64,000 bases of DNA from positions 34,574 through 98,573 of IMG/VR virus record IMGVR_UViG_3300045988_140174, one strand, 5' to 3'. This DNA comes from a virus. Of the stretch, positions 21,394-33,612 are shown one piece after another (position 1 is the first letter of the stretch; each line of letters starts with the position of its first letter). Below the pieces are notes generated by a model, which saw only the letters and a program-made list of their open reading frames with translations, did no database searches and was not told the DNA's origin. The translations under genes were made by a program, and so were the position numbers.

Positions 21394-21395
21394 GA

Positions 21396-21861: not shown

Positions 21862-21863
21862 AT

Positions 21864-22187: not shown

Positions 22188-22193
22188 AAAATT

Positions 22194-22227
22194 GGGGCTT
22201 GACAACAAGCCCCATTTCTGCTATAAT
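22194..22227 (+). promoter_or_regulatory. promoter whose -35 (TTGACA 22199) sits in the loop of hairpin GGGGCTTG-ACAA-CAAGCCCC; -10 TATAAT 22222
   Basis: hairpin immediately 3' of the upstream gene; -10 follows after an 18-nt spacer. Confidence 0.55.
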
Positions 22228-22258
22228 GAGTATAACAAAACAAGGGAGGACGAAAAAA

Positions 22259-22588: not shown

Positions 22589-22601
22589 GGAGGGAAACAA
22601 A

Positions 22602-22829
22602 ATGGAAATTATTAAAGCCCCTATCTATGTCAAAATGACAGAGGAGGAACGGAAAACCCTGCGTGACGCCTATGACATTCTGAATGAATTGTATGACATT
22701 ATCCACGATAATGACTGCGAGTATGTGAGCGATACTTGCGGAAATGGCTATGACAGAGTGGACGTCGCGCTTACGGCTAATGTGCTTCAAATGCTTGCCC
22801 CCACTGAAAAAGTGGAAATCGGCAAATGA
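22602..22829 (+). CDS. hypothetical protein, 75 aa (paralog of 22845..23075)
   Basis: RBS AAGGAGGGAAACAAA-ATG. Confidence 0.6.
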   Translation: MEIIKAPIYVKMTEEERKTLRDAYDILNELYDIIHDNDCEYVSDTCGNGYDRVDVALTANVLQMLAPTEKVEIGK

Positions 22830-22844
22830 AAGGAGGTAAAACAA

Positions 22845-23075
22845 ATGAACATCATTACCTCAAATGTTCAGGTTCAACTCACCCAAGAGGAAAAGGACAA
22901 ACTTCAAGACGCCCGCGAGGTCATTTCTCACCTGTTTGATTTGATGTATGACTACGAACAAGAATACGCTATTTCCAACATCGGCGAAGAGTATTCTATG
23001 AGCCAAGTCCGTGATACCTCAAACCTGCTGGCCGCGCTTATCGGGTCTGATAAAATGCGGTTAGAAAATAAATAA
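22845..23075 (+). CDS. hypothetical protein, 76 aa (paralog of 22602..22829)
   Basis: RBS AAAGGAGGTAAAACAA-ATG; shared pattern ..T.EE...L.DA.....L..L.D.D.EY. Confidence 0.6.
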   Translation: MNIITSNVQVQLTQEEKDKLQDAREVISHLFDLMYDYEQEYAISNIGEEYSMSQVRDTSNLLAALIGSDKMRLENK

Positions 23076-23080
23076 AAAAA

Positions 23081-23105
23081 TGTGGGAGAAATCCCACATT
23101 TTTTA
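23081..23105 (+). terminator. intrinsic terminator
   Basis: TGTGGGAGAAATCCCACA + T6, abutting the next -35. Confidence 0.75.
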
Positions 23106-23134
23106 TTGACAACAACCAAGAGGTGTGGTATAAT
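23106..23134 (+). promoter_or_regulatory. promoter TTGACA-17-TGGTATAAT
   Basis: consensus. Confidence 0.65.
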
Positions 23135-23164
23135 AAATACATCAAATAAAGGAGGATACCCCGA

Positions 23165-23371
23165 ATGACTATTTTTGAAATCAGAACTGAACTGGCCGAC
23201 CGTTATTGCGTAAAGCCTGACAAGGTAAGATGTTCCAACTGTGAATATTGGGGTTATAACCGCGGTAAGGTAATGAACAGTATGGGCGAGAGTAAATGTA
23301 TGAAGCGAAAGAACGAGCGCACCTGGTGTCGTCAATTCTGCCGGGGTTTCGTTCCAAAATCGGGAAAGTAA
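23165..23371 (+). CDS. Cys-rich small protein, 68 aa
   Basis: RBS AAAGGAGGATACCCCGA-ATG; CSNCEYW...CMKRK..WCRQFC. Confidence 0.6.
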   Translation: MTIFEIRTELADRYCVKPDKVRCSNCEYWGYNRGKVMNSMGESKCMKRKNERTWCRQFCRGFVPKSGK

Positions 23372-23376
23372 ATCAT

Positions 23377-23412
23377 TTGGGCTGGATGAACAAAAATCCA
23401 GCCCAATTTTTG
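23377..23412 (+). terminator. intrinsic terminator
   Basis: TTGGGCTGGATGAACAAAAATCCAGCCCAA + T-run. Confidence 0.75.
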
Positions 23413-23425
23413 TATAATTTTCCAC

Positions 23426-23479
23426 TTGACATTTTCGGCCGCGCGCTCACGATTGTGGCGCCCGGCATTTTTGTCAATA
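23426..23479. promoter_or_regulatory. degenerate copy of the promoter/hairpin/antisense-promoter element (TTGACA 23426; hairpin about 23436..23466; inverted TTGACA 23471..23479 without a good -10)
   Basis: hairpin loop TCACGATTGTG is shared with the copy at 31537..31561. Confidence 0.45.
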
Positions 23480-23525
23480 GGCATACTTCACAAATTTTTC
23501 GCCGCAATTTTGTGCATTTTGACGA

Positions 23526-23554
23526 TTGACTTCTATCCCGTAATACGGTATAAT
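23526..23554 (+). promoter_or_regulatory. proximal promoter TTGACT-17-TATAAT
   Basis: leader GGTATAATGGCTATACTGAAACAAGGAGGTAAG is shared with the 27195 gene. Confidence 0.6.
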
Positions 23555-23583
23555 GGCTATACTGAAACAAGGAGGTAAGAACA

Positions 23584-23802
23584 ATGGAGTTGAAGAAAGC
23601 GTATCAGATGGTGTTCAGCGACCTGCGCGAATGCCCTATGTTCCAAGGGCGTTATGATGCCATCAACGGCAATCCCTATTATATGTCCGGCATTGAGACG
23701 GTTATGGAAGTCATCGCCAATCGCGCCTATAATGATGATTTCGCCGAGCGGTTCTCCAATGAATTTACCGACAATATGTTAAGGAGTAGAAAAAATGTCT
23801 GA
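23584..23802 (+). CDS. hypothetical protein, 72 aa
   Basis: RBS AAGGAGGTAAGAACA-ATG. Confidence 0.65.
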   Translation: MELKKAYQMVFSDLRECPMFQGRYDAINGNPYYMSGIETVMEVIANRAYNDDFAERFSNEFTDNMLRSRKNV

Positions 23803-24166
23803 TTTTCAGAAGCAAACCCTCAAAAGGTATGGGCACAATTTCCTCATTGTGTGCGGTTTCGGTTTGCTGGTGTATGGTATGATAAAGTCCACACTGGTGC
23901 TATACGCAACAGTTGCGATTATGGTACTAACTATCGTAGGCGCGTGTATATGGTCTATGGTAGACTCTGTTCGCTGGGACTGGCGGTTGCGCGGTAAGCT
24001 AACAGAGAGCGAGTATAAGGCATACCAGTCCTGTGAAAGAGTTTTCGGCTGGCGTGATGATAAATACCTGCCGACTGAGGAACAAATTTACGCTATGGCG
24101 ATGGAAACATCTATTGACAAAGATGTGCTATGGAGTATGTATAACAAACTGACGGAGGGGCATTAA
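23795..24166 (+). CDS. membrane protein, 123 aa
   Basis: overlaps the upstream gene by 8 nt; two transmembrane helices. Confidence 0.6.
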   Translation: MSDFQKQTLKRYGHNFLIVCGFGLLVYGMIKSTLVLYATVAIMVLTIVGACIWSMVDSVRWDWRLRGKLTESEYKAYQSCERVFGWRDDKYLPTEEQIYAMAMETSIDKDVLWSMYNKLTEGH

Positions 24167-24252
24167 CGCCCCTCTTGTTGGGTTTAGTTCTGACTAACTA
24201 CACGGAACAAAAAATTAGTCCTGTGAGAATTTAACTACAACAAAAATTTTTC

Positions 24253-24281
24253 TTGACATTTTCAATTAAATGTGTTATTAT
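24253..24281 (+). promoter_or_regulatory. promoter TTGACA-17-TATTAT
   Basis: consensus -35. Confidence 0.5.
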
Positions 24282-24312
24282 TATAATAGAAATTAAGAAA
24301 GGAATTGATACT

Positions 24313-24513
24313 ATGAACATCCCCTCTAAGCTGAAACAAGTTGCTAATGAGTTGGAGCAACTGTCAATCGAAATCGCCGCAGAAAAGAAAAACCTGTCCA
24401 ACAGTGAGGACAAGCAAGCCGCTCAAAATTTGAGCGATGATTTGTTTGAAATCCAGTCCCATTTACGTACATCTATGTACTGGGTGGCGGAAGCTATGTT
24501 TGGGGAGGAGTGA
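24313..24513 (+). CDS. hypothetical protein, 66 aa
   Basis: RBS GAAAGGAATTGATACT-ATG; this leader sequence recurs at 29013 and 30202. Confidence 0.6.
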   Translation: MNIPSKLKQVANELEQLSIEIAAEKKNLSNSEDKQAAQNLSDDLFEIQSHLRTSMYWVAEAMFGEE

Positions 24514-24989
24514 TGACTATGAATGCTATTATTCTATTCATTGTTTGCACCGCTGTGAATGTGGTGCTGTCCACCATCAAATCCATTTTGACTGTCAAAG
24601 GCAATAAATGGGTTGCCGCTGGTATCAATGCGCTGACTTATGGCTTCTATTCCTATGTCATTATCCTGACCAACATTGACGGCGTTTCTACGCTGGCAAA
24701 GATGGGCATTACCGCCGCCTGTAATTTCGTTGGTGTGCTGGCGGTCAAATGGGTTGAGGAGCTGGCGCGCAAAGAAAAACTGTGGAAGATTGAAATGACT
24801 GTTCCCACTAAATACCGAGCCGCTGTGGATTTTGACCTGCGAGACATTCCACATTCATACATTGAGATTAGCAACAAACACACGCTATTCAATTTCTATT
24901 GTGCCACGCAAGCCGAGAGCAAAAAGGTCAAGGACATTGTGGCGCAGTATGGCGCAAAATATTTCGTAGCAGAAAGCAAAAATTTATAA
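24510..24989 (+). CDS. membrane protein, 159 aa (N-terminal 3 transmembrane helices)
   Basis: RBS GGGGAGGAG; overlapping start. Confidence 0.6.
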   Translation: MMTMNAIILFIVCTAVNVVLSTIKSILTVKGNKWVAAGINALTYGFYSYVIILTNIDGVSTLAKMGITAACNFVGVLAVKWVEELARKEKLWKIEMTVPTKYRAAVDFDLRDIPHSYIEISNKHTLFNFYCATQAESKKVKDIVAQYGAKYFVAESKNL

Positions 24990-24997
24990 AATAGGGG

Positions 24998-25026
24998 TTG
25001 ACAAATCAGTCCCTCTGTGTTAGAAT
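24998..25026 (+). promoter_or_regulatory. promoter TTGACA-17-TGTTAGAAT
   Basis: extended -10. Confidence 0.55.
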
Positions 25027-25056
25027 GGTATCATCAAATAAGGGAGGACAACAAAA

Positions 25057-25206
25057 ATGGAAATGATTAAAGTTTTCAATGACCACACCGGCGAAATCCT
25101 CGAAAAGACGTTCGTAGACCCCGCAGACGCGGACGACTTCGAGTTCATTCTCGACTTCCTTGAAGCGAGATACGAACGCTACCACAACGGCGAACAAATC
25201 TATTAA
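25057..25206 (+). CDS. acidic small protein, 49 aa
   Basis: RBS AAGGGAGGACAACAAAA-ATG. Confidence 0.55.
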   Translation: MEMIKVFNDHTGEILEKTFVDPADADDFEFILDFLEARYERYHNGEQIY

Positions 25207-25219
25207 GGAGGTTGCGACA

Positions 25220-25417
25220 ATGGAGACCAAAGATGTGTACTACAACGTTGAGTGGTGGGGCATAACTACTTGGGGCGAACGCTTCACTAATAGCGAGTAG
25301 TTCAAGAACGAAAACGAAACACTGTCGTTCATCGCAAATGACCTGGCAAATGACCCGCTTGTTCGCGGAGCGACCTTCACCACACACAAAACCATCGTAT
25401 TTAAGAGAGGAGAATAA
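25220..25417 (+). CDS. hypothetical protein, 65 aa if the in-frame TAG at 25298..25300 is read through (26 aa if it is a stop)
   Basis: RBS AAGGAGGTTGCGACA-ATG; the frame stays open after the TAG and ends at TAA overlapping the next RBS. Confidence 0.4.
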
Positions 25418-25418
25418 A

Positions 25419-25625
25419 ATGATTACTATTCTGATAACGGTTATTGCCCTCGGCATTTCGTTCCTGTTTACTGCTGGGCTGGTCTGGCTTCTCTGCTGGC
25501 TTCTCCCTGCTATCGGCATCGCGTCCATCGGCTCTATCGCCATCGTGTTTTCGTGGAAACTGGCGTTGGTGATTTGGCTCATTATCGCGCTCCTGCGCTC
25601 CATCTTCGTTAGCGTTAAGAGTTAA
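25419..25625 (+). CDS. small membrane protein, 68 aa
   Basis: RBS AAGAGAGGAGAATAAA-ATG; entirely hydrophobic. Confidence 0.6.
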   Translation: MITILITVIALGISFLFTAGLVWLLCWLLPAIGIASIGSIAIVFSWKLALVIWLIIALLRSIFVSVKS

Positions 25626-25673
25626 TTGAAAAATCTCCCAAATTTGGGAAATTTTTTTTGTCTATTTTACCTA

Positions 25674-25769
25674 TTGACAAACACCCCCCATTTGTGGTAT
25701 ACTCGGCCGAGCGCCCACGGCCCTGGCGCTCGAAATTTCTATTATACACCCTGCCAGCAATTTTGTCAA
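25674..25769. promoter_or_regulatory. composite element: plus promoter (TTGACA 25674-17-TATACT 25698), hairpin (25706..25732), face-to-face minus promoter (25741..25769 rc, TTGACA-17-TATAAT)
   Basis: consensus hexamers on both strands; minus-promoter spacer identical to the copy at 28167..28195. Confidence 0.6.
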
Positions 25770-25849
25770 TAGATAAATTGAACAAATTTACCCAAGCGCG
25801 CATCCCGAAAGTTTGTGCAAAATGACCAAGAGCAAAACCGAAAAAACTG

Positions 25850-25878
25850 TTGACAAATTGCGTTTTATCCTGTATAAT
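25850..25878 (+). promoter_or_regulatory. proximal promoter TTGACA-17-TATAAT
   Basis: consensus. Confidence 0.65.
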
Positions 25879-25909
25879 AGCATTACAATCAAGAAAGGAA
25901 GTTGATACA

Positions 25910-26356
25910 ATGACTATTTATCTGGACATGGACGGCACTATCGCGGGGATTTACAACGACCCTAACTGGTTGGCAAAGCTGGAAGCCTCTGACGTGAGTG
26001 TATATGCGGACGCCTGCCCGCTTGTTCACTTCTCCACCCTCGCCCGCTATCTGAACCGCTTACAGGCGCGGGGCTACCGCATCGGCATCATTAGCTGGCT
26101 GTCCAAGAGCGGAACGGATAAGTTCAACGCCGAGGTTGCCGAGGTCAAGCGCGAATGGCTGGCAAAGCATCTCCACAGCGTTCAGTGGGACGAAATTCAT
26201 ATTGTCCCCTATGGCGTTCCCAAGTCCAACTGCGCGACCTGCCCCAACGCGATTTTGTTCGATGACGAACAGCGCAACCTCAACGAGTGGATGGCAAACA
26301 CCCATAATATGGCGTACAATGCTGACCTCCTGATGGAAATTTTGCGAAACCTGTAA
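25910..26356 (+). CDS. HAD-superfamily phosphatase, probable 5'(3')-deoxyribonucleotidase-like, 148 aa
   Basis: motif I YLDMDGTIA (DxDGT) and C-terminal ILFDDE; RBS AGAAAGGAAGTTGATACA-ATG. Confidence 0.65.
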   Translation: MTIYLDMDGTIAGIYNDPNWLAKLEASDVSVYADACPLVHFSTLARYLNRLQARGYRIGIISWLSKSGTDKFNAEVAEVKREWLAKHLHSVQWDEIHIVPYGVPKSNCATCPNAILFDDEQRNLNEWMANTHNMAYNADLLMEILRNL

Positions 26357-26362
26357 AAAAAA

Positions 26363-26404
26363 TAGCAGACAGGGGTTGACAACCTCGCCCCTGTCTGCTA
26401 TAAT
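26363..26404 (+). promoter_or_regulatory. promoter with the -35 inside a hairpin loop (AGCAGACAGGGG-TTGACAACCTCG-CCCCTGTCTGCT) then TATAAT
   Basis: 12-bp stem; TTGACA 26376; TATAAT 26399. Confidence 0.6.
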
Positions 26405-26416
26405 ATGTAATGTAAT

Positions 26417-26462
26417 TAAGGTATGGGAAACGATGGTAAGCCCAACCAAGAGAAAAGGAGAA
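26417..26462 (+). promoter_or_regulatory. conserved 5' leader motif (copy 1)
   Basis: AAGGTATGGGAAACGATGGTAAGCCCAACCAAGAGAAAAGGAGAAA; near-identical copy at 27470..27520; contains a short upstream ORF. Confidence 0.5.
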
Positions 26463-26469
26463 ATGAACA

Positions 26470-27126
26470 ATGAAAAATATCTACTGCACGCTGGACACTG
26501 AAACGGTAGGCGGCGCGGCTCACCCCACGGGAATGTATAATGTGGGTGCGATTATCCACGACCGCAAGGGCGAAATCCTCGCCACCACGTCCCTGCTGGT
26601 GATGGAGCATTATGACGAAATCGCCCTCGATGGCTACGCCAAGAAGAATTTTCCGGTATATGCCGAACGGCTCAAAACTGGCGAAATCTCCGCTATCGCC
26701 ACGGAGCGCGAAGCCTATGAGGTAGTCAAAAACCTGTGCGACCATTACGGTGTCCGCTATGTGATGGCATACAATTCCGGTTTTGACTTCTGCAAGACCT
26801 GTTTCCGCGCCCTGCTGGATAATTTCGAGTTCATCGACCTGTATCTGATGGCACTGGAAACTATCACCCACAAAAAGTCCTATGCAGAATACTGCCGAGA
26901 GCATGGCAAGCGTTCCAAGAATGGCAAGACCTGTGCAACCTCTGTCGAAGCGGTGTATGGTTATCTCCACGATAACCCCGACTTTTCCGAAGAACACACC
27001 GCCCTGTCTGACGCTATGCAGGAAATGGAAATTTTCCTTGCCTGTCAGAAGATGCACAAGCGATACACCAAGAACGTCCACGCATGGGATGCGCCCTTTG
27101 AGGTAAAATGTTTTCCCAAGTTTTGA
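26470..27126 (+). CDS. DEDDh 3'-5' exonuclease (DnaQ/RNase T-like), 218 aa
   Basis: Exo I CTLDTETVG, Exo II YVMAYNSGFDFCKT, Exo III YGYLHDNPDFSEEHTALSDAMQ. Confidence 0.75.
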   Translation: MKNIYCTLDTETVGGAAHPTGMYNVGAIIHDRKGEILATTSLLVMEHYDEIALDGYAKKNFPVYAERLKTGEISAIATEREAYEVVKNLCDHYGVRYVMAYNSGFDFCKTCFRALLDNFEFIDLYLMALETITHKKSYAEYCREHGKRSKNGKTCATSVEAVYGYLHDNPDFSEEHTALSDAMQEMEIFLACQKMHKRYTKNVHAWDAPFEVKCFPKF

Positions 27127-27130
27127 GAAT

Positions 27131-27164
27131 GGGGCTTGACAGCCCCTTTCTCATGTGGTATAAT
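27131..27164 (+). promoter_or_regulatory. promoter with the -35 in a hairpin loop (GGGGC-TTGACA-GCCCC) then TGGTATAAT
   Basis: TTGACA 27136, TATAAT 27159. Confidence 0.6.
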
Positions 27165-27194
27165 GACTATACTGAAACAAGGAGGTAAGCGCAA

Positions 27195-27407
27195 ATGCCT
27201 AAGCAGGTTCTTTTCAAGAGCGACCATTCAGATGGCGTTCAGGCAGGCATTCAGGAAGATAACGGAAATATTATCTGTGCCTGTTGCGGTGGAGTGTTTG
27301 AAGCCGAGGAAGCTACCATTCTCCATGAGTTCGACTATTGGGTTGACTTTTCGGAATGGATTGGCGACCCTGACCTGACTGAGTATCGCAAGCACGATAC
27401 CCCGTAA
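27195..27407 (+). CDS. hypothetical protein, 70 aa
   Basis: RBS CAAGGAGGTAAGCGCAA-ATG; CACCGG motif. Confidence 0.6.
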   Translation: MPKQVLFKSDHSDGVQAGIQEDNGNIICACCGGVFEAEEATILHEFDYWVDFSEWIGDPDLTEYRKHDTP

Positions 27408-27416
27408 AAAAAGTTT

Positions 27417-27455
27417 GGAATGGGGGTTGACAACGCCCCCATTCCATGCTATAAT
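27417..27455 (+). promoter_or_regulatory. promoter with the -35 in a hairpin loop (GGAATGGGGG-TTGACAAC-GCCCCCATTCC) then TATAAT
   Basis: TTGACA 27427, TATAAT 27450. Confidence 0.6.
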
Positions 27456-27469
27456 AACATTACAAATTC

Positions 27470-27520
27470 AAGGTAGGGGAAACGATGGTAAGCCCCACCA
27501 ATAGAAAAGGAGAAAAAAAA
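27470..27520 (+). promoter_or_regulatory. conserved 5' leader motif (copy 2)
   Basis: AAGGTAGGGGAAACGATGGTAAGCCCCACCAATAGAAAAGGAGAAAAAAAA. Confidence 0.5.
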
Positions 27521-27522
27521 CT

Positions 27523-28053
27523 ATGAAAGCTCGCTATGCTAACCTGACTAACTTCAATCGCACTGTCAAGACCTACAAGTGGCTGGTAGACCTGTTCGGA
27601 AGTAAGGAGTTCTCCTCTGAGGACTTCAAACAGGCAAAGCGCAAGTATCGGTGGTACACCTACAATTCCCTTGCGTTTCTGCGGGACGAGGGTATCATCA
27701 AGGTAGTTCGCACCGAACAGACCACCAAGGAAATTAATCTGCGTCCGTGGGAAGCGGACATTTGGATGATTGACAAGGATGGCAACGCCCTGATGACCGA
27801 GTATGACTGGGTGCGTTTGCCGGACGTGGCGCAGAACGCTCTGCGGACTATAAATGGACAGAATTTCCGCACGGAGCGCAAGGACACCAAGACCGTGGAA
27901 GTGGAAAAGTCCATTTACACAGTCAATCCTGATGGTATGCTGGCATGGCGCAAGAGGTATGGGCGTCTGTTGGCTGAAAGGGCTGACGCGCTGGCGGGCG
28001 AAATCGCAAACCTGAACGAAAAGCGGGACGCATTTCTCGCTTGTCAGCTCTAA
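27523..28053 (+). CDS. hypothetical protein, 176 aa
   Basis: ORF with RBS in the conserved leader. Confidence 0.65.
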   Translation: MKARYANLTNFNRTVKTYKWLVDLFGSKEFSSEDFKQAKRKYRWYTYNSLAFLRDEGIIKVVRTEQTTKEINLRPWEADIWMIDKDGNALMTEYDWVRLPDVAQNALRTINGQNFRTERKDTKTVEVEKSIYTVNPDGMLAWRKRYGRLLAERADALAGEIANLNEKRDAFLACQL

Positions 28054-28058
28054 CAAAA

Positions 28059-28086
28059 ATGAGGGGAAAATTCCCCTCATTTTTTG
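28059..28086 (+). terminator. intrinsic terminator
   Basis: ATGAGGGGAAAATTCCCCTCAT + T6. Confidence 0.8.
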
Positions 28087-28100
28087 TATAATTTTCCCTA

Positions 28101-28195
28101 TTGACAAACGCGCCTGGGCATGGTATAATGGCCGGCCGATTTCGCGCGTCTCGGCCGGAATTCACCATTATACACCCTGCCAGCAATTTTGTCAA
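28101..28195. promoter_or_regulatory. composite element: plus promoter (TTGACA 28101-17-TATAAT 28124), hairpin GGCCGGCCGA-N11-TCGGCCGG (28130..28158), face-to-face minus promoter (28167..28195 rc)
   Basis: consensus hexamers with 17-bp spacers on both strands. Confidence 0.6.
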
Positions 28196-28253
28196 GAGTT
28201 TTTTTGCACAAATTTTTTTATTTATTTTTCCCGAAACTTGTATAGTTTGCCTA

Positions 28254-28960
28254 TTGTAATCTATACTTACCTATGCTATACTACATAATGTCAAGAGGGA
28301 GTGAGACCCCGTGGGCTGGGCTAATGGTAGGTAATGTCCCAAGTGTAAGTGAGAGCGCGCCGTACTGAAAAAAAAGACCAAAATTCCCTCTTGACAAACT
28401 CCATCAAAGGTGCTATAATGGGTGTGTCAGGAGGCGGCTCAATGATGGGTCGCTCCCATCAGGATTAAACCGAAAAAAATTTCAAAGAAATTTGAAATTC
28501 CCTCTTGACAAACCCAAGCCCCTGTGCTATAATGGATAATGTCAAGAGGGGAACGGCACGGCAGATGCGTCTAATGTGTCGCTTGTGTAGACAGGTTTCA
28601 GAAATTTGGAAAAATTTCAAAAAACCTCTTGACAATCCCCAGCACCTGTGCTATAATTGATAATGTCAAGAGGGGAACAGCCCCACCCAAGAAATCCGCG
28701 GGTCGCGAACCGTGCGAGAGTAAAGGAAGTAAGCCCTATACCAGCGCAGTAAACCCAAACGATGAACGAAAAGTGAGTGGATTGGTCAGTTCGTCCATGC
28801 GCATGGAAACGTTGAACCAACAGCAACACCTTATTCGTCAGGCGAGGTTGTAAGTCGGCTGTGAATACTTGTGGAGCGTTCCCCTGTTGACACTATCAAA
28901 AAAAATCAAGAATTTTGGAAAAAACTCTTGACAATCCCAGCGCAAGCTGTTATAATAGAT
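28254..28960 (+). other. tandem array of 5 promoter-leader modules (TTGACA-17-TATAAT then transcript starting (G/A)ATAATGTCAAGAGGG...) with tiny ORFs
   Basis: promoters at about 28254, 28391, 28505, 28629 and 28928; tiny ORFs 28288..28368 (26 aa), 28442..28468 (8 aa, with AGGAGG RBS), 28539..28574 (11 aa), 28663..28752 (29 aa); a 175-nt spacer of unknown function at 28753..28927. Confidence 0.5.
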
Positions 28961-29012
28961 AATGTCAGGAGGGCAAAGCCCTCAAAACCAAATGGAGAAA
29001 GGAATTGATACT

Positions 29013-29393
29013 ATGGCTAACACTAACACCACCACCCGCAAGCCCACCAAGCGCGATAATTTCACCGCCCTGCTGAAACTGTCCGAGGTCAAGGCTGACC
29101 CCAAGCTGGTGGAGTTCATCACCCACGAAATCGACCTGCTCGACCGCAAGAACACCGTGGACAAGAAGCCCACCAAGACCCAGCAGGAGAATGAGGTCAT
29201 CAAGACCACTGTCCTGTCCGCTATGGAGAGCAACCGGCTGTATTCTATCAGCGAGATGCTCAAAGAGTTCCCCGTCTGCAAGGACATGAGCAATCAGAAG
29301 CTGTCCTCCCTCGTCCGGCAGATGGTGCTGGATAAGCAGGTGGAGCGCGTGGAGGACAAGCGCAAGGCGTTCTTCCGCAAGGTGAGCGCGTAA
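29013..29393 (+). CDS. family-A protein, 126 aa (paralogs at 30202..30621 and 55655..56062)
   Basis: RBS GGAGAAAGGAATTGATACT-ATG; shared TKRDnFTAlL and LDRKNTVDKKPT motifs. Confidence 0.7.
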   Translation: MANTNTTTRKPTKRDNFTALLKLSEVKADPKLVEFITHEIDLLDRKNTVDKKPTKTQQENEVIKTTVLSAMESNRLYSISEMLKEFPVCKDMSNQKLSSLVRQMVLDKQVERVEDKRKAFFRKVSA

Positions 29394-29444
29394 ACCTCAA
29401 AGGGTGGGGAGCAATCCCCACCCTAACCCTGAAAGGAGTATCGC

Positions 29445-29801
29445 ATGACTGACCGAGTTGCCGACCTCATGCGAAAGCTGGATTGCACCGAAGCCGAAGC
29501 CAAGGACATTATCGTTCAAGATGCTATCATCGACAAAGGCGGCAATCCGTTTCCGCTGACCGAGGAGCAGGAAAAGGCAAGCAAGAAAGCGCGGGGAGTA
29601 GGACGCCAGCCGACCGCATACAAGTTCGCGCCAAGAGAAAAAAAGGCTAATCCCACAAAGCAGACTATCATCACTCTGCTGACCGAGACACTGACCACAT
29701 ACGGCGCGACTGACCTGAACGTGAGCAACGCGGAGCGCGAATTTTTATTCACGCTTGATGGAACAAAATACAAGGTTGTGCTGTCGTGCCCGCGCAAGTG
29801 A
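29445..29801 (+). CDS. family-B protein, 118 aa (paralog at 30683..31081)
   Basis: RBS TGAAAGGAGTATCGC-ATG; shared PTAYKF..RE.KANPTK motif. Confidence 0.7.
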   Translation: MTDRVADLMRKLDCTEAEAKDIIVQDAIIDKGGNPFPLTEEQEKASKKARGVGRQPTAYKFAPREKKANPTKQTIITLLTETLTTYGATDLNVSNAEREFLFTLDGTKYKVVLSCPRK

Positions 29802-29827
29802 GGGAGAGAAATCTCCCTCATTTTTTT
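29799..29827 (+). terminator. intrinsic terminator overlapping the stop
   Basis: TGAGGGAGAGAAATCTCCCTCA + T7. Confidence 0.8.
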
Positions 29828-29841
29828 GTGCATTTTGACTA

Positions 29842-29936
29842 TTGACAAACGCGCTCAAATGTGTTAAAATGGGTCGGGCGCTCACGGCTGTGGCGCCCGA
29901 AATTTCCATTATACCACGTGGCACAAATTTTGTCAA
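29842..29936. promoter_or_regulatory. composite element: plus promoter (TTGACA 29842-17-TAAAAT 29865), hairpin CGGGCGC-TCACGGCTGTG-GCGCCCG (29875..29899), face-to-face minus promoter (29908..29936 rc, TTGACA-17-TGGTATAAT)
   Basis: same architecture as 21473, 25674 and 28101. Confidence 0.6.
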
Positions 29937-30104
29937 GTGTTTTTTTGCACAAATTTTGGATGTTGAAAATCCCATTTTTTGTGAGTATTGACTATTGCAA
30001 TCTGCCCAAGGGTGTGGTAATATATAATTGTTCCAAGGGAGAGGGTAAGACCTCCCGGCGGGGCGTGTACCTCGAAAAAAATTCCACAAATCCGAAAAAA
30101 AGTC

Positions 30105-30133
30105 TTGACAAGGCTTCGGGTGTGTGTTATAAT
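30105..30133 (+). promoter_or_regulatory. promoter TTGACA-17-TATAAT
   Basis: consensus; leader ATAGATGTTCCAAGAGG has a 13-codon upstream ORF. Confidence 0.6.
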
Positions 30134-30201
30134 ATAGATGTTCCAAGAGGAAAACAACAATATGGTGGGCGACACCTAAAAACGCAGAAAGGGTTGATAC
30201 T

Positions 30202-30621
30202 ATGACTAACACTACTTCCACTGTGCGCCTGACCAAGCGCGACTACTTCACCGCCATTCTGTCCAAGGTGGATATGGACGCTACCTATGACATCCCCAAG
30301 GGTGATGCCATTGTCAAGGTTTCCGGTGCTGATGTGGCGGGCTTCCTGAACCACGAGCTGGACCTGCTCGACCGCAAGAACACCGTGGACAAGAAGCCGA
30401 CCGCCACGCAGGTGGCAAACGAGGGTATCAAGGCTGACATCAAGGCGTTCCTGGACGCCCACAAGGGCGAGAAGTACACCGTGTCCGCTCTGATGAAGTC
30501 TGTCCCCGCTATCGCCGATGCGTCCAATCAGAAGGTTTCTTCTCTGGTGCGTCAGATGGTGCTGGACGGTCAGGCAGACCGTATCGAGGATAAGCGCAAG
30601 GCGTATTTCACCGCCAAGTAA
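30202..30621 (+). CDS. family-A protein, 139 aa
   Basis: RBS GAAAGGGTTGATACT-ATG. Confidence 0.7.
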   Translation: MTNTTSTVRLTKRDYFTAILSKVDMDATYDIPKGDAIVKVSGADVAGFLNHELDLLDRKNTVDKKPTATQVANEGIKADIKAFLDAHKGEKYTVSALMKSVPAIADASNQKVSSLVRQMVLDGQADRIEDKRKAYFTAK

Positions 30622-30682
30622 GACATGAGGGGGGGAGACATTCTCCCCCCCTATCCTCTAAAATCTGAAAAGGCGGTGTTTT

Positions 30683-31081
30683 ATGGCTGAAATCTCCAAA
30701 ACTGAATGGCTGAAAAACGCTATGGCGAAAATGGGCTGGACGGCTGATGAAGCGGAAGCCGTGTGGAACTCTGACCGAGAAATCGACAAGGGCAAGAAGC
30801 AGGATTTTGACCTGTCGAAAGAACAGCTCAAAATCGCCCAAAAATTCGCCAAGACTGGCACACGCAAGACCCCCACCGCATACAAATTCACCACAAGGGA
30901 ACGCAAGGCAAATCCCACAAAAGCATCCATTATCGCTGAACTCGCAACATTTTTGACCGAAAACAGCGAAAATGCCTGCGAAAATGTGGAAATAACTAAC
31001 AAAGAGAGACAGATTGCATTTTCGGTTGGTGAAAATTCCTATGAACTGACCCTTGTGCAGAAGCGCAAGCCGAAAAGTTGA
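30683..31081 (+). CDS. family-B protein, 132 aa
   Basis: ORF; paralog of 29445..29801. Confidence 0.7.
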   Translation: MAEISKTEWLKNAMAKMGWTADEAEAVWNSDREIDKGKKQDFDLSKEQLKIAQKFAKTGTRKTPTAYKFTTRERKANPTKASIIAELATFLTENSENACENVEITNKERQIAFSVGENSYELTLVQKRKPKS

Positions 31082-31131
31082 GAAAATGGGGGAGAAATCC
31101 CCCATTTTCCCCGAAAAATGAGGAAAAAAGT

Positions 31132-31476
31132 GTGAAAAACAAGGAATTTTTGTATGTAGGGCACTATTATGATGAAAATGGCGTATACATTCTGAAAATA
31201 GGCACTACTAACAATTTAAAGCGCAGACAGCGGGAACATACCCACAACTACAAAGAGTCTCCGGTTTACCGTTTACCGAAAAATGGTAAGTTTATTTACG
31301 ATTTTTCGATACCGCTCTCTAAATACAACACTTTGCGATACGAGGACAAAAATCGTGAGCATTGGCAGAAAATGGGATACGGCGTGTTTGTGAGAAATGA
31401 CAGATTTGCCTGTCCTGTGAAGCCGAAGTCTGTTGAAATTACCATTCGTCGAACTTACCAAATCGCTCTCGATTGA
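31132..31476 (+). CDS. GIY-YIG nuclease-domain protein, about 114 aa (start codon uncertain: GTG 31132 or TTG 31078)
   Basis: motif GVYILKIGTTNNLKRRQREH; no dedicated promoter; follows hairpin 31086..31105. Confidence 0.55.
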   Translation: MKNKEFLYVGHYYDENGVYILKIGTTNNLKRRQREHTHNYKESPVYRLPKNGKFIYDFSIPLSKYNTLRYEDKNREHWQKMGYGVFVRNDRFACPVKPKSVEITIRRTYQIALD

Positions 31477-31503
31477 GGGCGATTTTTTTATTCAATTTGA
31501 CTA

Positions 31504-31561
31504 TTGACAACGCCCTCTGACTGTGGTATAATGGGTCGGGCGCTCACGATTGTGGCGCCCG
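31504..31561. promoter_or_regulatory. promoter (TTGACA 31504-17-TATAAT 31527) + hairpin CGGGCGC-TCACGATTGTG-GCGCCCG (31537..31561) + inverted TTGACA remnant
   Basis: degenerate copy of the composite element. Confidence 0.5.
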
Positions 31562-31622
31562 GCATTTTTGTCAATACACATTTTCAACAATTTTTCCGGC
31601 GAAAGTTTGTATAAATTGACTA

Positions 31623-31651
31623 TTGCATTTTGTCCCGAAATGCGCTATACT
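31623..31651 (+). promoter_or_regulatory. proximal promoter TTGCAT-17-TATACT
   Basis: spacing and hexamers. Confidence 0.5.
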
Positions 31652-31699
31652 ATAAACAATCTGAGGGAACTGGAACCCACCAACAGCAAGGAGGCATCT

Positions 31700-32311
31700 A
31701 TGAATAAGAGCCAGTTTTTTGACCACGAAATCGAGTTCATTCAGTCCGAGGATTTGCGCTCATTCGTGCGCTATTACTTCGACTGTATCGTTCCCGATTA
31801 TTTCTGGACTATCGGCGCGAGTTCTTCCGGCAAGTTCCATCCGGCTATGAGCCAAGGCGAGGGCGGTTTGGTGCGCCACACTAAGGCGGTGGCGTGGTTT
31901 TGTGAGGAATTGCTCCGCATGAGCCAGTGGGCGTATCTCACTGACGAGCGCAAGGACTATGCACGAGTTGCCTGTCTGCTCCACGATACAGCCAAGTATG
32001 GCTTACACGAGTTCGACAAGGAACAGTATGCCCAGCACGGCGCGATTGCCGCTGACCAAGTTTGCCGGACGTGGATGGTGTTTTTCAATGAGGACTGCCC
32101 CTACGAGCTGACGCAAGCCATCAAGTCCCACATGGGTCAGTGGACTACCAACAAGGCGGATAGACCTTTCACTCCTATCGACAGACTGGTACACATGGCT
32201 GACTATGTGGCAAGCCGTCCGTTTATCGACATTCCGGCAATCAACGCTGACTATAACGACAAGGCGGAACTGGACGAAATCTCGCCTGGACTGCCGTGGG
32301 AGGAGGAATAA
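31700..32311 (+). CDS. HD-domain phosphohydrolase (5'-deoxynucleotidase-like candidate), 203 aa
   Basis: H..(GKFHP), HD (LLHDTAKY), D (HMADYVAS) motif set; RBS CAAGGAGGCATCT-ATG. Confidence 0.65.
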   Translation: MNKSQFFDHEIEFIQSEDLRSFVRYYFDCIVPDYFWTIGASSSGKFHPAMSQGEGGLVRHTKAVAWFCEELLRMSQWAYLTDERKDYARVACLLHDTAKYGLHEFDKEQYAQHGAIAADQVCRTWMVFFNEDCPYELTQAIKSHMGQWTTNKADRPFTPIDRLVHMADYVASRPFIDIPAINADYNDKAELDEISPGLPWEEE

Positions 32312-32313
32312 TC

Positions 32314-32505
32314 GTGACCCTTAAATTTTACTTCAACGCTGACGAGAATATGTGTGCGAGCGAGCACTGGGTCATCCAGTATCTCCACATACAAAATCCC
32401 GACATAGACGAGGATGAAATCGAGGACGAACTCCGCTCCCGCCGGGAATATTTTGGCTGGTATGAGTGCCAAGTGTCCGATGACATTGAAGAAAAATTCT
32501 TTTGA
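32314..32505 (+). CDS. acidic small protein, 63 aa (GTG start)
   Basis: RBS GGAGGAGGAATAATC-GTG overlapping the upstream stop. Confidence 0.5.
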   Translation: MTLKFYFNADENMCASEHWVIQYLHIQNPDIDEDEIEDELRSRREYFGWYECQVSDDIEEKFF

Positions 32506-32507
32506 GA

Positions 32508-32538
32508 TTAAGGGTGGAGAAATCCACCCTTAATTTTT
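32508..32538 (+). terminator. intrinsic terminator
   Basis: TTAAGGGTGGAGAAATCCACCCTTAA + T6. Confidence 0.8.
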
Positions 32539-32552
32539 GTTTATTTTGCCTA

Positions 32553-32640
32553 TTGACAACGTGGGCCCGGTGTGGTATAATAAAAGGGGAGGGTACAACG
32601 GGCCGAGCGCGGGCGCTGCGGTCCGAAATTCCGATCTGTA
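32553..32640. promoter_or_regulatory. promoter (TTGACA 32553-17-TATAAT 32576) + GC-rich hairpin region; the antisense promoter is absent in this copy
   Basis: GGGCCGAGCGCGGGCGCTGCGGTCCGAAATTCC resembles the hairpin + GAAATTYC of the other copies. Confidence 0.45.
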
Positions 32641-32730
32641 CCCCCATATGGAAAATTTTTCGTGATTCTAGCGACCCTCATATGCGCGCCAAAAATCCCA
32701 AAAAGCCGAGCCCCGCTCGGTACCCATATG
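32638..32730. repeat. three CATATG motifs in about 90 bp, two embedded in GTACCC(CC)ATATG direct repeats
   Basis: CATATG at 32645, 32679 and 32725; GTACCC at 32638 and 32720. Confidence 0.5.
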
Positions 32731-32739
32731 CCGCCCGGT

Positions 32740-32825
32740 TTGACATAAAAAAAAATTTATGTTATAATGATAAAAAAAACCATTTTTTTTCTCACTTGAC
32801 TTTTAAAAAAATTTTTTGTATAATA
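32740..32825 (+). promoter_or_regulatory. two tandem promoters (TTGACA 32740-17-TATAAT 32763; TTGACT 32797-17-TGTATAAT 32820)
   Basis: consensus hexamers and spacing. Confidence 0.55.
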
Positions 32826-32856
32826 TATGTATACAAAATGAAAAGAGGTTATTTAT

Positions 32857-33231
32857 ATGAATAAGAACGATATTCTGACGCGCTTAATGAATGGCGAGAG
32901 CGCTGAGGATATTGCTAAGGAAATGACTGCGATGCTGAATGACGCCACCAAGGCATATGCTGACCAGAAGAAGGACAAGGAAAAGATGGCCCGAGCGGAA
33001 GCGGTTGCCGATGCTATCAACGACTATGCGGCCTACGTCGGCTATAAGGGCGCAGAGTTGAAGGGCGAGGACGTCATTAAGGTTATGGACAGTTTCCTTA
33101 AATTCTACAAGGACCCAGGTAATTTCAAGATTGAACTCCCCGGATTCCGTTTTGAAACAAACTCTAAGGGTGCGATTAAGAAGGGCAAAACCGTTGATGA
33201 AATTCTCAACGACTGGATTTCTCGCATTTAA
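32857..33231 (+). CDS. hypothetical protein, 124 aa
   Basis: RBS AAAAGAGGTTATTTAT-ATG. Confidence 0.65.
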   Translation: MNKNDILTRLMNGESAEDIAKEMTAMLNDATKAYADQKKDKEKMARAEAVADAINDYAAYVGYKGAELKGEDVIKVMDSFLKFYKDPGNFKIELPGFRFETNSKGAIKKGKTVDEILNDWISRI

Positions 33232-33244
33232 TTTCGATTAACGT

Positions 33245-33307
33245 GTCGGCCCAGGTATTTTTCATTTGGGAAATTGGCGATTAGAATACCTGGGCTCGAC
33301 GTTTTTT
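33245..33307 (+). terminator. strong intrinsic terminator closing the GC-rich block
   Basis: about 15-bp stem GTCGGCCCAGGTATT...AATACCTGGGCTCGAC + TTTTTT. Confidence 0.8.
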
Positions 33308-33612
33308 GGAAAGGGTATCTTGAAAAATTCAGAGGATGACGATAACGATGAAATTGAGTGATGAGTTGGTACCGAGCGGGGGCACCAAACTTCCATCATT
33401 TTTCAATTTTTCTATTATTATCATCATTCTACCATAATCATTTTGTTATTAAGAGAAAACATTATAAGTTCCATTATTCGTTGTTTACAATTATATTCAT
33501 CAACCCCGCTAATAGGTTTATTTAATTATGATTTAGTTTTTGTGGAGGTAAAACAATTAATCAAACCTCAGACTCAAAAAAACGTCATAAGTCAAAAAAA
33601 ACATCATTGGTT

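What the first reader, a model, noticed from the sequence alone, without database searches (positions are those of the whole stretch)
28254..28960. Tandem array of five consensus promoter-leader modules sharing the 5' sequence AUAAUGUCAAGAGGG, with 8-29 codon ORFs and a 175-nt untranslated spacer
Each unit is CCTCTTGACAA-17-TATAAT followed by a transcript beginning (G/A)ATAATGTCAAGAGGG(G) that folds into a 5' stem-loop. An ATG lies 2-3 nt from the predicted start (leaderless-like) and opens ORFs of 26, 11 and 29 codons. One unit instead has a canonical AGGAGG-ATGATGGGTCGCTCCCATCAGGATTAA 8-codon ORF. The last unit's leader continues into the family-A gene at 29013, and a sixth similar leader precedes 30202. 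This could be a small-RNA or micropeptide array, or decayed leaders of duplicated family-A genes, and is functionally undefined either way.
Basis: seen in the sequence. Interest (0 to 1): 0.7.

Follow-up and report, generated by a model that had tools for sequence, protein, structure and literature searches.

The report
Phage array of promoter-driven small RNAs
In the early region of a human-gut phage, five tandem host-type promoters each start a short structured non-coding RNA (one is a conserved RNA of about 235 nt) whose 5' end base-pairs with the RNA copy of the next promoter's -35 region; the tiny ORFs are not conserved, and what the RNAs do is still unknown.

Summary
The array is real. 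Four perfect TTGACA-17-(TG)TATAAT promoters and one weak one lie at 28254-28956, all on the + strand. There are no terminators or conserved ORFs between them, and the array ends at a small winged-helix gene (29013).

About 80 related loci from gut phages show that the units are modular cassettes. Promoter and leader are constant. At least 12 different bodies (here a, c, d, e) are gained and lost between near-identical genomes.

The "175-nt untranslated spacer" is part of cassette e (28663-28897). This RNA is present in every close relative and has five supported helices with compensatory changes and a swappable central hairpin. It is more conserved than the adjacent gene and has no Rfam match. 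Cassette b in relatives also covaries.

The shared leader UGUCAAGAGG pairs with CCUCUUGACA of the next promoter, not its own. This closes each RNA with a 10-22 bp stalk.

The leaderless NTG ORFs shift frame or stop early between variants, so micropeptides are unlikely. Body e has no similarity to the family-A gene.

Best reading: an array of small-RNA genes transcribed early by host RNA polymerase. It resembles T7's A1-A2-A3 promoter cluster but carries structured RNA cargo. The RNAs' function is inferred, not shown.

The parts
28254..28282 (+). Unit 1 promoter, weak (TTGTAA-17-TATACT with a TG extension). The first promoter of the array in all relatives, where it reads cTATTGTAATC...TAtAaT.
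28288..28396 (+). Cassette a RNA, about 109 nt. Its leader AUGUCAAGAGGGAG pairs with UUCCCUCUUGACA (28384-28396) of the next promoter.
   Evidence: Fold with a 14-bp closing stem, z = -2.75. The same cassette occurs in L009 and L067.
28391..28419 (+). Unit 2 promoter, 12 of 12 matches with a TG extension.
28426..28510 (+). Cassette c RNA with the variant leader GUGUCAGGAGG. It holds the hairpin GAUGGG-UCGCU-CCCAUC (28444-28460) and the 8-codon ORF 28442-28468, which is preceded by AGGAGG at 28429-28434. The 3' part is an AU-rich palindrome followed by the next promoter's -35 region.
   Evidence: Fold z = -4.07. The ORF and hairpin are conserved in L004, L047, L052, L068 and L076, with a C-to-U change that keeps a G.U pair.
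28505..28533 (+). Unit 3 promoter, 12 of 12 matches with a TG extension.
28539..28634 (+). Cassette d RNA, 96 nt: a 10-bp closing stem and three internal hairpins.
   Evidence: Fold z = -3.97. Eight distinct variants, with one compensatory pair (C:G to U:A).
28629..28657 (+). Unit 4 promoter, 12 of 12 matches with a TG extension.
28663..28897 (+). Cassette e, a conserved structured RNA of about 235 nt. Helices: P1 is 28664-28678 with 28877-28892 (extendable to 28659/28897); P2 is the hairpin within 28695-28717; P3 is 28742-28746 with 28855-28860; P4 is 28754-28756 with 28846-28848. The variable hairpin is at 28779-28821 and P6 lies within 28834-28847.
   Evidence: MFE -83.6 kcal/mol, z = -4.57. 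57 instances and 37 distinct sequences. 96.6% of cells are paired against 35-51% in slid controls, with compensatory pairs in P2, P3 and P6. No Rfam match.
28928..28956 (+). Unit 5 promoter, 12 of 12 matches with a TG extension. This is the proximal promoter of the family-A gene.
28962..29012 (+). 5' UTR of the family-A gene. It has the variant leader AUGUCAGGAGGG, a 5' hairpin at 28969-28983 and the ribosome-binding site AAAGGAAUUGAUACUAUG.
29013..29393 (+). Family-A gene, 126 aa. A helical N-terminal half is followed by a C-terminal winged helix-turn-helix-like domain. It lies directly downstream of e wherever the downstream flank was recovered.
   Evidence: No Pfam or PHROG family. AlphaFold pLDDT 84.9. 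The best Foldseek matches are MecI, MarR, PadR and ArsR regulators at weak E-values of 0.007-0.05. Synteny.
29995..30201 (+). Second, shorter array before the family-A paralogue at 30202. It has a weak promoter with leader at 30027 and a perfect promoter at 30105-30133 with leader at 30136. No closing stem is predicted here.

Best explanation
The region is a modular array of small non-coding RNA genes that the host sigma-A/sigma-70 RNA polymerase would transcribe early in infection.

Shown by the sequence:
- Each unit has an A-tract upstream region, a consensus -35, an extended -10 and a constant leader, followed by its own structured body.
- No intrinsic terminators separate the units.

Supported by comparison with relatives:
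- The bodies are discrete cassettes under selection for RNA structure.
- The leader (UGUCAAGAGG plus 0-6 more nt) pairs with the RNA copy of the next promoter's upstream flank and -35 hexamer (..CCUCUUGACA). Each RNA is therefore closed by a terminal stalk. In e this stalk is a dedicated 17-22 bp helix.

Inferred:
- The stalk defines and protects both RNA ends. It would act like the processing stalks that flank rRNAs, or like the RNase III sites of T7 and SP82 early RNA. RNase III and/or exonuclease trimming would cut read-through transcripts into stable small RNAs.
- The remaining read-through, together with promoter 5, expresses the downstream winged-helix gene.
- The RNAs act in trans during host takeover, as decoys, sponges or regulators. 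Cassette e would serve as a conserved scaffold carrying an exchangeable specificity hairpin.
- The target is unknown.
For: - Promoters: four perfect extended -10 promoters and one weak one, all co-directional, with no hairpin-plus-U-tract sites between them.
- Cassette turnover: across about 80 loci the arrays end in e followed by family-A, while the upstream cassettes vary. Observed orders include b-d-e, g-f-e, b-e, a-b-d-e, f-e and c-f-e, and there are at least 12 body types.
- Selection on e: 71% nucleotide identity between the two clades. The adjacent gene is only 50% identical in protein, and its codon positions are 63, 70 and 50% identical.
- Structure of e: 96.6% of cells are paired against 35-51% when the 3' partners are slid; 0 of 500 shuffles reach the observed paired percentage or covariation score. 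Compensatory pairs are C:G to A:U in P2, A:U to C:G in P3 and U:A to C:G in P6. G.U pairs place the structure on the + strand.
- Hairpin swaps in e: UCCAUG-CG-CAUGGA against UUCGGAU-UU-AUCCGAA, and UUGGU/ACCAA against CUUGU/ACAAG. Minimal variants of about 135-165 nt keep P1, P2 and P3; L078 carries the compensating stalk GAGGAAAGG/CCUUUCCUC at a site that is not a promoter.
- Cassette b: four compensatory pairs. One hairpin occurs in three sequence versions, while its large loop is nearly invariant.
- Closure: leader nt 13 of b covaries with the base upstream of the next promoter's CCCTC (A:U in 5 variants, G:C in 4).
- First units have no CCTCTTGACA in their own promoter, yet they carry the leader and pair best with the next promoter: -21 to -24 kcal/mol against -5 to -10 for their own.
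- In distant relatives (family-A 40-53% identical), 10 of 11 geneless units fold with their 5' end paired to the last 26 nt, using other sequences.
- Precedents: a 14-bp 5'/3'-UTR pairing modulates RNase Y cleavage in the 5' UTR of B. subtilis hbs mRNA (PMC5737220). Shine-Dalgarno-like 5' elements stabilise SP82 phage and other Firmicute RNAs (PMC7509114).
Against: - There are no transcript data, so start sites, 3' ends and processing are all predicted.
- The host is unknown, so promoter use is inferred from the consensus.
- Without terminators, every unit could simply be part of a long 5' UTR of the family-A gene.
- The covariation rests mainly on two clades plus a few outliers, so the changes are few independent events.
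- Two of the five both-sided changes counted (P1 columns 13:175 and 14:174) are alignment artefacts.
- Most P1 pairs never vary.
- Cassettes a, d and f vary too little to test.
- Stalks of 10-14 bp are shorter than classical RNase III substrates.
- GAGG in the leader and CCTC in the promoter could each be kept for other reasons (a Shine-Dalgarno-like stabiliser, promoter context) and pair only as a by-product.
- The second array at 29995-30201 shows no closure.
- No complementary target was found within the window.
Confidence: 0.55

Rival explanations
1. The array is a tandem-promoter booster or entry signal for the family-A operon, acting only in cis, like T7's non-coding A1-A2-A3 cluster. 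Its job would be to load many host polymerases and drive very high early transcription, or transcription-driven DNA entry. The RNA segments would be leaders whose structures only stabilise or process the mRNA, with no role in trans.
For: - The promoters are co-directional with no terminators between them, and the array always abuts the family-A gene.
- The paralogue at 30202 also has tandem promoters.
- Unit spacings of 114, 124 and 299 bp are of the same order as T7 A1-A2-A3, all three of which lie within a ~570-bp fragment (PMC11863960).
- T7's cluster is described as a non-coding internalisation signal upstream of ocr (PMC11863960).
- The whole 19-33 kb island carries about 29 rightward consensus promoters.
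Against: - A booster does not need specific bodies, yet the bodies are discrete, conserved cassettes with compensatory changes and nearly invariant loops.
- Cassette e is more conserved than the gene it precedes.
- Promoter 5 already sits next to the gene.
- The array lies in the middle of the early island rather than at an obvious leading end.
Confidence: 0.25
2. The inverted repeat CCTCTTGACA...TGTCAAGAGG, or the AT-rich palindromes upstream of the promoters, are DNA operators for a phage regulator that shuts off the array. The winged-helix family-A protein is the obvious candidate. On this view the RNA pairing is incidental.
For: - Family-A is predicted to have a winged helix-turn-helix domain resembling MecI, MarR, PadR and ArsR repressors.
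- Palindromes such as GAAATTT-GGAA-AAATTTC (28602-28619) and AAATTTCAAAGAAATTTGAAATT (28476-28498) precede promoters.
- The repeat overlaps the -35 hexamer.
Against: - First units carry the leader but have no CCTCTTGACA in their own promoter, so there is no repeat around that promoter.
- The half-sites are about 41 bp apart.
- G.U pairs and the covariation of b's leader with the next promoter's flank fit RNA, not DNA.
- L078 keeps the 3' strand at a site that is not a promoter.
- The palindromes are absent before some units.
Confidence: 0.08
3. The units encode micropeptides: leaderless MSRG... peptides from the 5'-terminal AUG, and/or the 8-codon ORF with a Shine-Dalgarno sequence in unit 2.
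For: - An NTG start codon (ATG, GTG or TTG) sits at the predicted start of nearly all units.
- The unit 2 ORF has AGGAGG 7 nt upstream and is conserved as MMGRSHQD or MMGRSYQD in 6 loci.
Against: - The leaderless frames of e end after 5, 15, 18, 29, 30, 37-40 or 75 codons in near-identical RNAs.
- Variants of b, g and c are frameshifted by 1-2 nt indels.
- L078 reads the conserved nucleotides of e in another frame.
- GTG and TTG are poor leaderless starts (general knowledge).
- The unit 2 ORF coincides with a hairpin, and its single substitution preserves the pairing.
Confidence: 0.04
4. The units are decayed remnants of duplicated family-A leaders or genes, with no present function.
For: - The leader is shared with the family-A 5' UTR, and family-A itself is duplicated.
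- The 5' part of e contains words typical of ribosome-binding leaders: CCAAGAAA and AAAGGAAG.
Against: - Beyond the leader, e has no significant similarity to either family-A locus. Local alignment scores are 21 and 14 against a shuffle mean of 18.
- The bodies show structure-preserving changes, and e is more conserved than the adjacent gene's third codon positions.
Confidence: 0.03
5. The array is a transcription-activated replication origin, in which purine-rich leader transcripts form R-loop primers.
For: - The leader RNA is G-rich, AT-rich tracts lie next to the promoters, and the promoters are in tandem, as at the T7 and T4 origins (general knowledge; sequence).
Against: - The same promoter-leader design precedes about 25 ordinary genes in the island.
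- The cumulative GC-skew minimum and the point of divergent transcription lie near 16 kb, not here.
- The bodies covary as RNA structures.
Confidence: 0.02

Closest known systems
Phage T7 early promoter cluster A1-A2-A3 (the non-coding 'internalisation signal') with the downstream RNase III site R0.3
   Same: Both have several very strong host-polymerase promoters in tandem, one to a few hundred bp apart. There are no genes or terminators between them, and the cluster lies directly upstream of a small early gene. The leader RNAs are removed by cleavage of a double-stranded stem (PMC11863960; RNase III processing from general knowledge).
   Different: Here each interval is a distinct, conserved, structured RNA cassette that is swapped between strains. 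Every RNA is closed by pairing with the next promoter's -35 region. The array sits inside a 15-kb island of similar promoters and recurs before a paralogue. Its position relative to the genome end is unknown.
SPO1/SP82 host-takeover early region of Bacillus phages: consensus sigma-A promoters with upstream A-tracts, Bs-RNase III sites in early RNA, and a polypurine 5' stabiliser
   Same: Both are large phages of Firmicute type with many consensus early promoters in front of small genes. Both have purine-rich, Shine-Dalgarno-like sequences near RNA 5' ends, and stems in early RNA that could be RNase III substrates (PMC7509114; the rest is general knowledge: Hue, Cohen and Bechhofer 1995; Panganiban and Whiteley 1983).
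   Different: No sequence similarity was found in the phage collection. Geneless promoter units with structured cargo are not a described feature of SPO1 or SP82. Here the Shine-Dalgarno-like element is paired rather than free.
Terminal processing stalks and 5'/3' end pairing: rRNA precursors and B. subtilis hbs mRNA
   Same: Sequences at the two ends of an RNA pair over 10-22 bp. This defines or protects the ends against RNases (hbs: a 14-bp 5'/3'-UTR interaction, PMC5737220).
   Different: Here the 3' strand is at the same time the -35 and upstream element of the next promoter. The principle is repeated in tandem for unrelated small RNAs.
Known phage RNA arrays that act on the host: type III antitoxin mimics (pseudo-ToxI) and RNA anti-CRISPRs (solitary repeat units)
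   Same: These are also short non-coding RNAs expressed from strong phage promoters, with rapid gain and loss, and they act as decoys.
   Different: The bodies here are not tandem copies of one repeat, and no endoRNase gene is adjacent. There is no significant CRISPR-repeat match; the only hit is 16 bits with E = 7.7, on an AT palindrome. The host's repeats are unknown.

Membership tests
T7-type tandem early promoter cluster | Two or more strong host-RNA-polymerase promoters in tandem, co-directional, with no genes between them | tested here: met
   Four perfect promoters and one weak one at 28254-28956. No conserved ORF lies between them.
T7-type tandem early promoter cluster | Located at the genome end that enters the cell first | not testable with these tools
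   The genome termini are unknown. The array lies in the middle of a 15-kb island of rightward promoters.
T7-type tandem early promoter cluster | An RNase III site separates the leader RNAs from the first gene | tested here: inconclusive
   A 17-22 bp helix (P1 of e) ends 31 nt before promoter 5. Cleavage has not been tested.
Any Rfam RNA family | A covariance-model match at the family's gathering score | tested here: not met
   No hits in the window at gathering threshold. In E-value mode on 28050-29050 and on six related loci, no hit fell on the RNA bodies: all matches were below the gathering score, most on terminator/hairpin regions next to the arrays and a few weak ones (E >= 3) on the AT-rich palindromes and promoter sequence between units.
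Structured non-coding RNA gene (generic) | Conserved secondary structure supported by compensatory changes, with strand-specific G.U pairs | tested here: met
   For e: 96.6% of cells paired against 35-51% in slid controls, and three reliable both-sided changes. For b: four compensatory pairs and three versions of one hairpin.
Structured non-coding RNA gene (generic) | A discrete transcript with defined 5' and 3' ends | not testable with these tools
   Only promoters and closing stems are predicted. There are no intrinsic terminators inside the array.
Micropeptide or small-ORF genes | Reading frame and length conserved among relatives | tested here: not met
   Premature stops and frameshifts occur in e, b, g and c. 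The 8-codon ORF of unit 2 is conserved but too short and too invariant to judge.
Type III toxin-antitoxin antitoxin array (ToxI-like) | Tandem identical RNA repeats next to an endoRNase toxin gene | tested here: not met
   The bodies are unrelated to each other. The downstream gene is winged-helix-like.
RNA anti-CRISPR (solitary repeat unit) | Sequence and structure mimic the host's CRISPR repeat | not testable with these tools
   The host is unknown. The genome scan returned only two mis-binned phage contigs. There is no meaningful CRISPR-DR match.

The most novel reading that the evidence does not exclude
These gut phages, which are probably TAG-recoded, carry an RNA cassette platform. Promoter -35 elements double as the 3' strand of the preceding RNA's closing stalk, so that promoter, leader and stalk form a portable frame. 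Unrelated structured RNAs are shuffled into this frame by recombination.

The cargo would be a fast-evolving set of anti-host or anti-defence RNAs, such as aptamer-like sponges or protein decoys. Cassette e would be a conserved scaffold bearing an exchangeable specificity hairpin, and it would work together with the adjacent winged-helix protein.
Probability: 0.25. Interest if true: 0.85.

Novelty: new variant of a known kind. Interest (0 to 1): 0.62.

Why it matters
Protein-based host takeover and anti-defence genes in phage early regions are well known. RNA-based ones are few.

This locus suggests that a widespread group of large human-gut phages devotes its strongest promoters to a variable set of small structured RNAs. 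These include at least two new RNA families with covariation support (e and b) and several untested ones.

It also shows an economical design in which one DNA sequence serves both as a promoter -35 element and as an RNA helix strand. That design would explain how an array without terminators can still yield discrete, stable RNAs.

The prediction is directly testable, and the frame (promoter, leader, stalk) could be useful for expressing stable RNAs in Firmicutes. If instead the RNAs prove to be mere leaders, the locus is an elaborate analogue of T7's A1-A3 cluster and of moderate interest only.

Tried and rejected
- Rfam: no hit on any cassette body. This covers the whole window at gathering threshold, the array in E-value mode, and six related loci.
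- tRNA and tmRNA: none in the window.
- INPHARED phages: blastn found only a 135-bp, 72% match to phAss-1, in the gene upstream of the array. That match served only to place the phage near the "code 15" clade.
- Family-A protein: no Pfam, PHROG or PDB sequence match. The fold search gave only weak winged-helix similarity.
- e as a decayed family-A copy: rejected, because the local alignment is no better than shuffles.
- Antisense targets of a, c, d and e inside the window: only chance matches of 8-14 nt.
- Host identification with the e pattern in 185,579 genomes: two MAG contigs that look like mis-binned phage.
- Neutral-rate comparison within the W clade: uninformative, because the genomes are too similar. 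Cassette d is 93-100% identical against 87-98% at third codon positions.
- Stop-codon reassignment test: my crude version was only suggestive. Reading TAG as sense raises ORF coverage in 1-18 kb from 10.3 to 19.5 kb.
- A 3-4 bp helix "P2b" around 28729-28741 in e: dropped, because the two clades need different registers.
- MAFFT misaligns the 3' strand of P1 in the L003 clade, so the two "compensatory" P1 pairs should be ignored.
- A minus-strand promoter using the inverted TGTCAA: excluded by inspection, since there is no -10 at the right distance.

Full report
**Context**

The window is phage-like. A 15-kb island (about 18-33.5 kb) has 44-50% G+C, inside sequence of about 30% G+C. The island carries about 29 rightward TTGACA-17-TATAAT promoters. 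Most have a TG extension, and most are followed after about 20 nt by a strong Shine-Dalgarno sequence and a small gene. Recognisable products include a deoxyribonucleotidase-like protein, a DnaQ-like exonuclease, an HD-domain protein and a T5orf172 protein. This is a typical early or host-takeover set.

The only hit among deposited phages is a short match to phAss-1, a human-gut phage of the "Caudoviricetes code 15 clade" whose host is thought to be a clostridial Firmicute. All relatives I found come from human-gut or yak-colon assemblies, on contigs of up to about 200 kb.

**The observation**

Perfect promoters lie at 28391, 28505, 28629 and 28928, and a weak one (TTGTAA-17-TATACT) lies at 28254. 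The 15-mer ATAATGTCAAGAGGG is exact three times and occurs once with a single mismatch. Shuffles never reach the observed count.

Three details need correction.
- Unit 1 is not a consensus promoter, and unit 2 has a variant leader.
- With a 17-bp spacer, the start should be the A or G of aATGtc, so ATAAT is mostly promoter discriminator rather than transcript.
- The leader does not generally form a local 5' stem-loop.

**Relatives reveal cassettes**

A scan for the leader, a scan for a motif of the long unit and a protein-based scan together gave about 80 loci. Cutting them at each promoter shows a constant frame: A-tract, CCTCTTGACA, 17 bp, TATAAT and the leader ATGTCAAGAGGG. Discrete bodies sit inside this frame.

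The window has a, c, d and e. Close relatives, with a family-A protein 95-99% identical, have b-d-e, b-e or a-b-d-e. A second clade has f-e, g-f-e, c-f-e, g-b-e and others. At least 12 body types occur, and e is always last, directly before the family-A gene. This turnover inside a conserved repeat frame looks like recombination between promoter repeats.

**Cassette e is a structured RNA**

The "175-nt spacer" belongs to e (28663-28897). There are 57 instances and 37 distinct sequences.

Between the two clades e is 71% identical over 167 alignable positions. The adjacent gene is 50% identical in protein, with codon positions 63, 70 and 50% identical. So e is under stronger constraint than the coding sequence next to it. 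Single-nucleotide indels and frame-independent conservation rule out coding.

A nested model explains the conservation:
- P1 is the terminal stalk.
- P2 is a hairpin.
- P3 and P4 enclose a variable long hairpin.
- P6 is a small hairpin.

Under this model, 96.6% of cells pair, against 35-51% when the 3' partners are slid by 1-3 columns. No shuffle out of 500 reaches the observed paired percentage or covariation score. Reliable compensatory pairs are C:G to A:U in P2, A:U to C:G in P3 and U:A to C:G in P6. Two apparent changes in P1 are alignment artefacts.

The central hairpin is replaced wholesale between variants while remaining a hairpin. Minimal forms of about 135-165 nt keep P1-P3. One of them (L078) has a compensating stalk, GAGGAAAGG/CCUUUCCUC, at a place that is not a promoter. 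G.U pairs place the structure on the + strand. The window copy folds to -83.6 kcal/mol with z = -4.6. Rfam has nothing like it.

**Other cassettes**

Cassette b is absent from the window but present in 23 units. It has four compensatory pairs, one hairpin in three sequence versions with different tetraloop-like loops, and a nearly invariant 18-nt loop. Cassettes d and c each show one compensatory pair. Cassettes a and f vary too little to test, and g, though it has 13 distinct variants, shows no pair changed on both sides.

**The leader closes each RNA on the next promoter**

Each window unit was folded from its predicted start to the next -35 hexamer. The results were a 10-14 bp terminal stem and z-scores of -2.8 to -4.1. 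Without the 3' strand the bodies are unremarkable.

Three observations show that this is RNA pairing with the downstream promoter and not a DNA palindrome around the unit's own promoter.
- First units have a different promoter (cTATTGTAATC) without CCTCTTGACA. They nevertheless carry the leader and pair most strongly with the next promoter: -21 to -24 kcal/mol against -5 to -10.
- Nucleotide 13 of b's leader covaries with the base upstream of the next promoter's CCCTC (A:U in 5 variants, G:C in 4).
- In relatives whose family-A protein is only 40-53% identical, and whose leaders and bodies differ, 10 of 11 geneless units still fold with the 5' end paired to the last 26 nt, sometimes using the A-tract element instead of the -35.

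**Coding potential**

The NTG at the predicted start opens frames that end after 5 to 75 codons in e. These frames are shifted by 1-2 nt indels in b, g and c. The 8-codon ORF with a Shine-Dalgarno sequence in unit 2 is conserved in six loci. It coincides with a hairpin, however, and its only substitution keeps the pairing, so it remains undecided. Body e is not a decayed family-A copy.

**Mechanism**

Shown: tandem consensus promoters, no intrinsic terminators, structured bodies and terminal stalks.

Inferred: transcripts starting at any unit run through the following units. Pairing of each leader with the next -35 region brackets each body, as the flanking stalks bracket rRNAs or as RNase III stems punctuate T7 and SP82 early RNA. 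Cleavage and trimming to the stalk would leave small RNAs with both ends buried. That state is known to protect RNA in Firmicutes (PMC5737220; PMC7509114).

What the RNAs then do is not known. Their early, very strong expression, rapid cassette turnover, invariant loops and exchangeable hairpin point to trans-acting decoy or regulatory RNAs. A purely cis role, as leaders of the winged-helix gene, is the main rival. This rival corresponds to the T7 A1-A2-A3 arrangement (PMC11863960).

**Verdict**

The feature is real and more than chance. It is best described as a promoter-framed array of small structured RNA genes. It is a new variant of the known tandem early promoter arrangement and contains new RNA families. 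The function is unproven.

Noticed in passing
window 28050-28200; also 25625-25775 and 29790-29940; degenerate copies near 21430-21570 and 20240-20400: Face-to-face pairs of perfect consensus promoters (for example + at 28101-28129 and - at 28195-28167) have predicted start sites only about 25 bp apart. They flank a GC-rich hairpin whose sequence differs between copies while still pairing. The minus-strand promoter points at a bidirectional terminator (28055-28084). This predicts an RNA of about 103 nt that is antisense to the + promoter, with a 5' hairpin and a terminator.
   Followed up: partly
window 18000-33500 compared with the rest: A 15-kb island has 44-50% G+C, inside a genome of about 30% G+C. 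It holds about 29 rightward consensus promoters and reads well in the standard code. Outside it, long ORFs are scarce in code 11, and reading TAG as sense nearly doubles ORF coverage in 1-18 kb. This fits a TAG-recoded (code 15) phage whose early genes use the standard code.
   Followed up: partly
window 26418-26463 and 27470-27515: Two different genes (a DnaQ-like exonuclease at 26470 and an unknown gene at 27523) share a 46-nt 5' UTR element that is 93% identical. It has a small stem that changes U:A to G:C between the copies and a loop containing GGUAAGCCC.
   Followed up: partly
window 26436, 27488, 28729, 30045 (+ strand): The motif GTAAG(A/C)CC occurs 6 times in the window, against 1.9 expected. 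Four of these lie 16-67 nt downstream of early promoters, in leaders or in cassette e. The same motif recurs in cassettes g and k of relatives. It may be a protein-binding or processing site.
   Followed up: partly
window 29013-29801 and 30202-31081: A two-gene cassette is duplicated, with about 76-80% nucleotide identity in blocks. It consists of family-A (winged-helix-like, 126 and 139 aa) and family-B (118 and 132 aa, with no known domain). Each copy is preceded by tandem promoters and followed by a terminator and a convergent-promoter module.
   Followed up: partly
L017:2210-2390 and L082:7495-7680: In more distant relatives, the position directly upstream of family-A is occupied by another long (about 190 nt) conserved non-coding unit, 'k'. 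Shared blocks are GACCCACGAGAGTC, GACCGCA.GGT and AAATGTGAACCA. L082 has both a minimal e and k.
   Followed up: no
window 28476-28498, 28602-28619, 28905-28919: AT-rich palindromes (for example AAATTTCAAAGAAATTTGAAATT and GAAATTT-GGAA-AAATTTC) sit just upstream of the A-tract and -35 of several array promoters, here and in relatives. They could be curved or UP-element DNA, or a binding site for a dimeric protein.
   Followed up: partly
window 28534-28540, 28658-28664, 28957-28963, 28283-28289: A second -10-like hexamer (GATAAT or CATAAT) follows the true -10 by one base in every array unit. In relatives it reads GAAAAT. Ordinary gene promoters of the island do not show it consistently. It might cause sigma-dependent promoter-proximal pausing.
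   Followed up: no
L083 (CAMELE010000001.1, 163,874 bp) and L082 (JAGBXW010000037.1): Contigs that carry the same phage array are deposited inside MAGs labelled 'uncultured Mollicutes' and 'Treponema sp.'. They look like mis-binned phage sequence.
   Followed up: no
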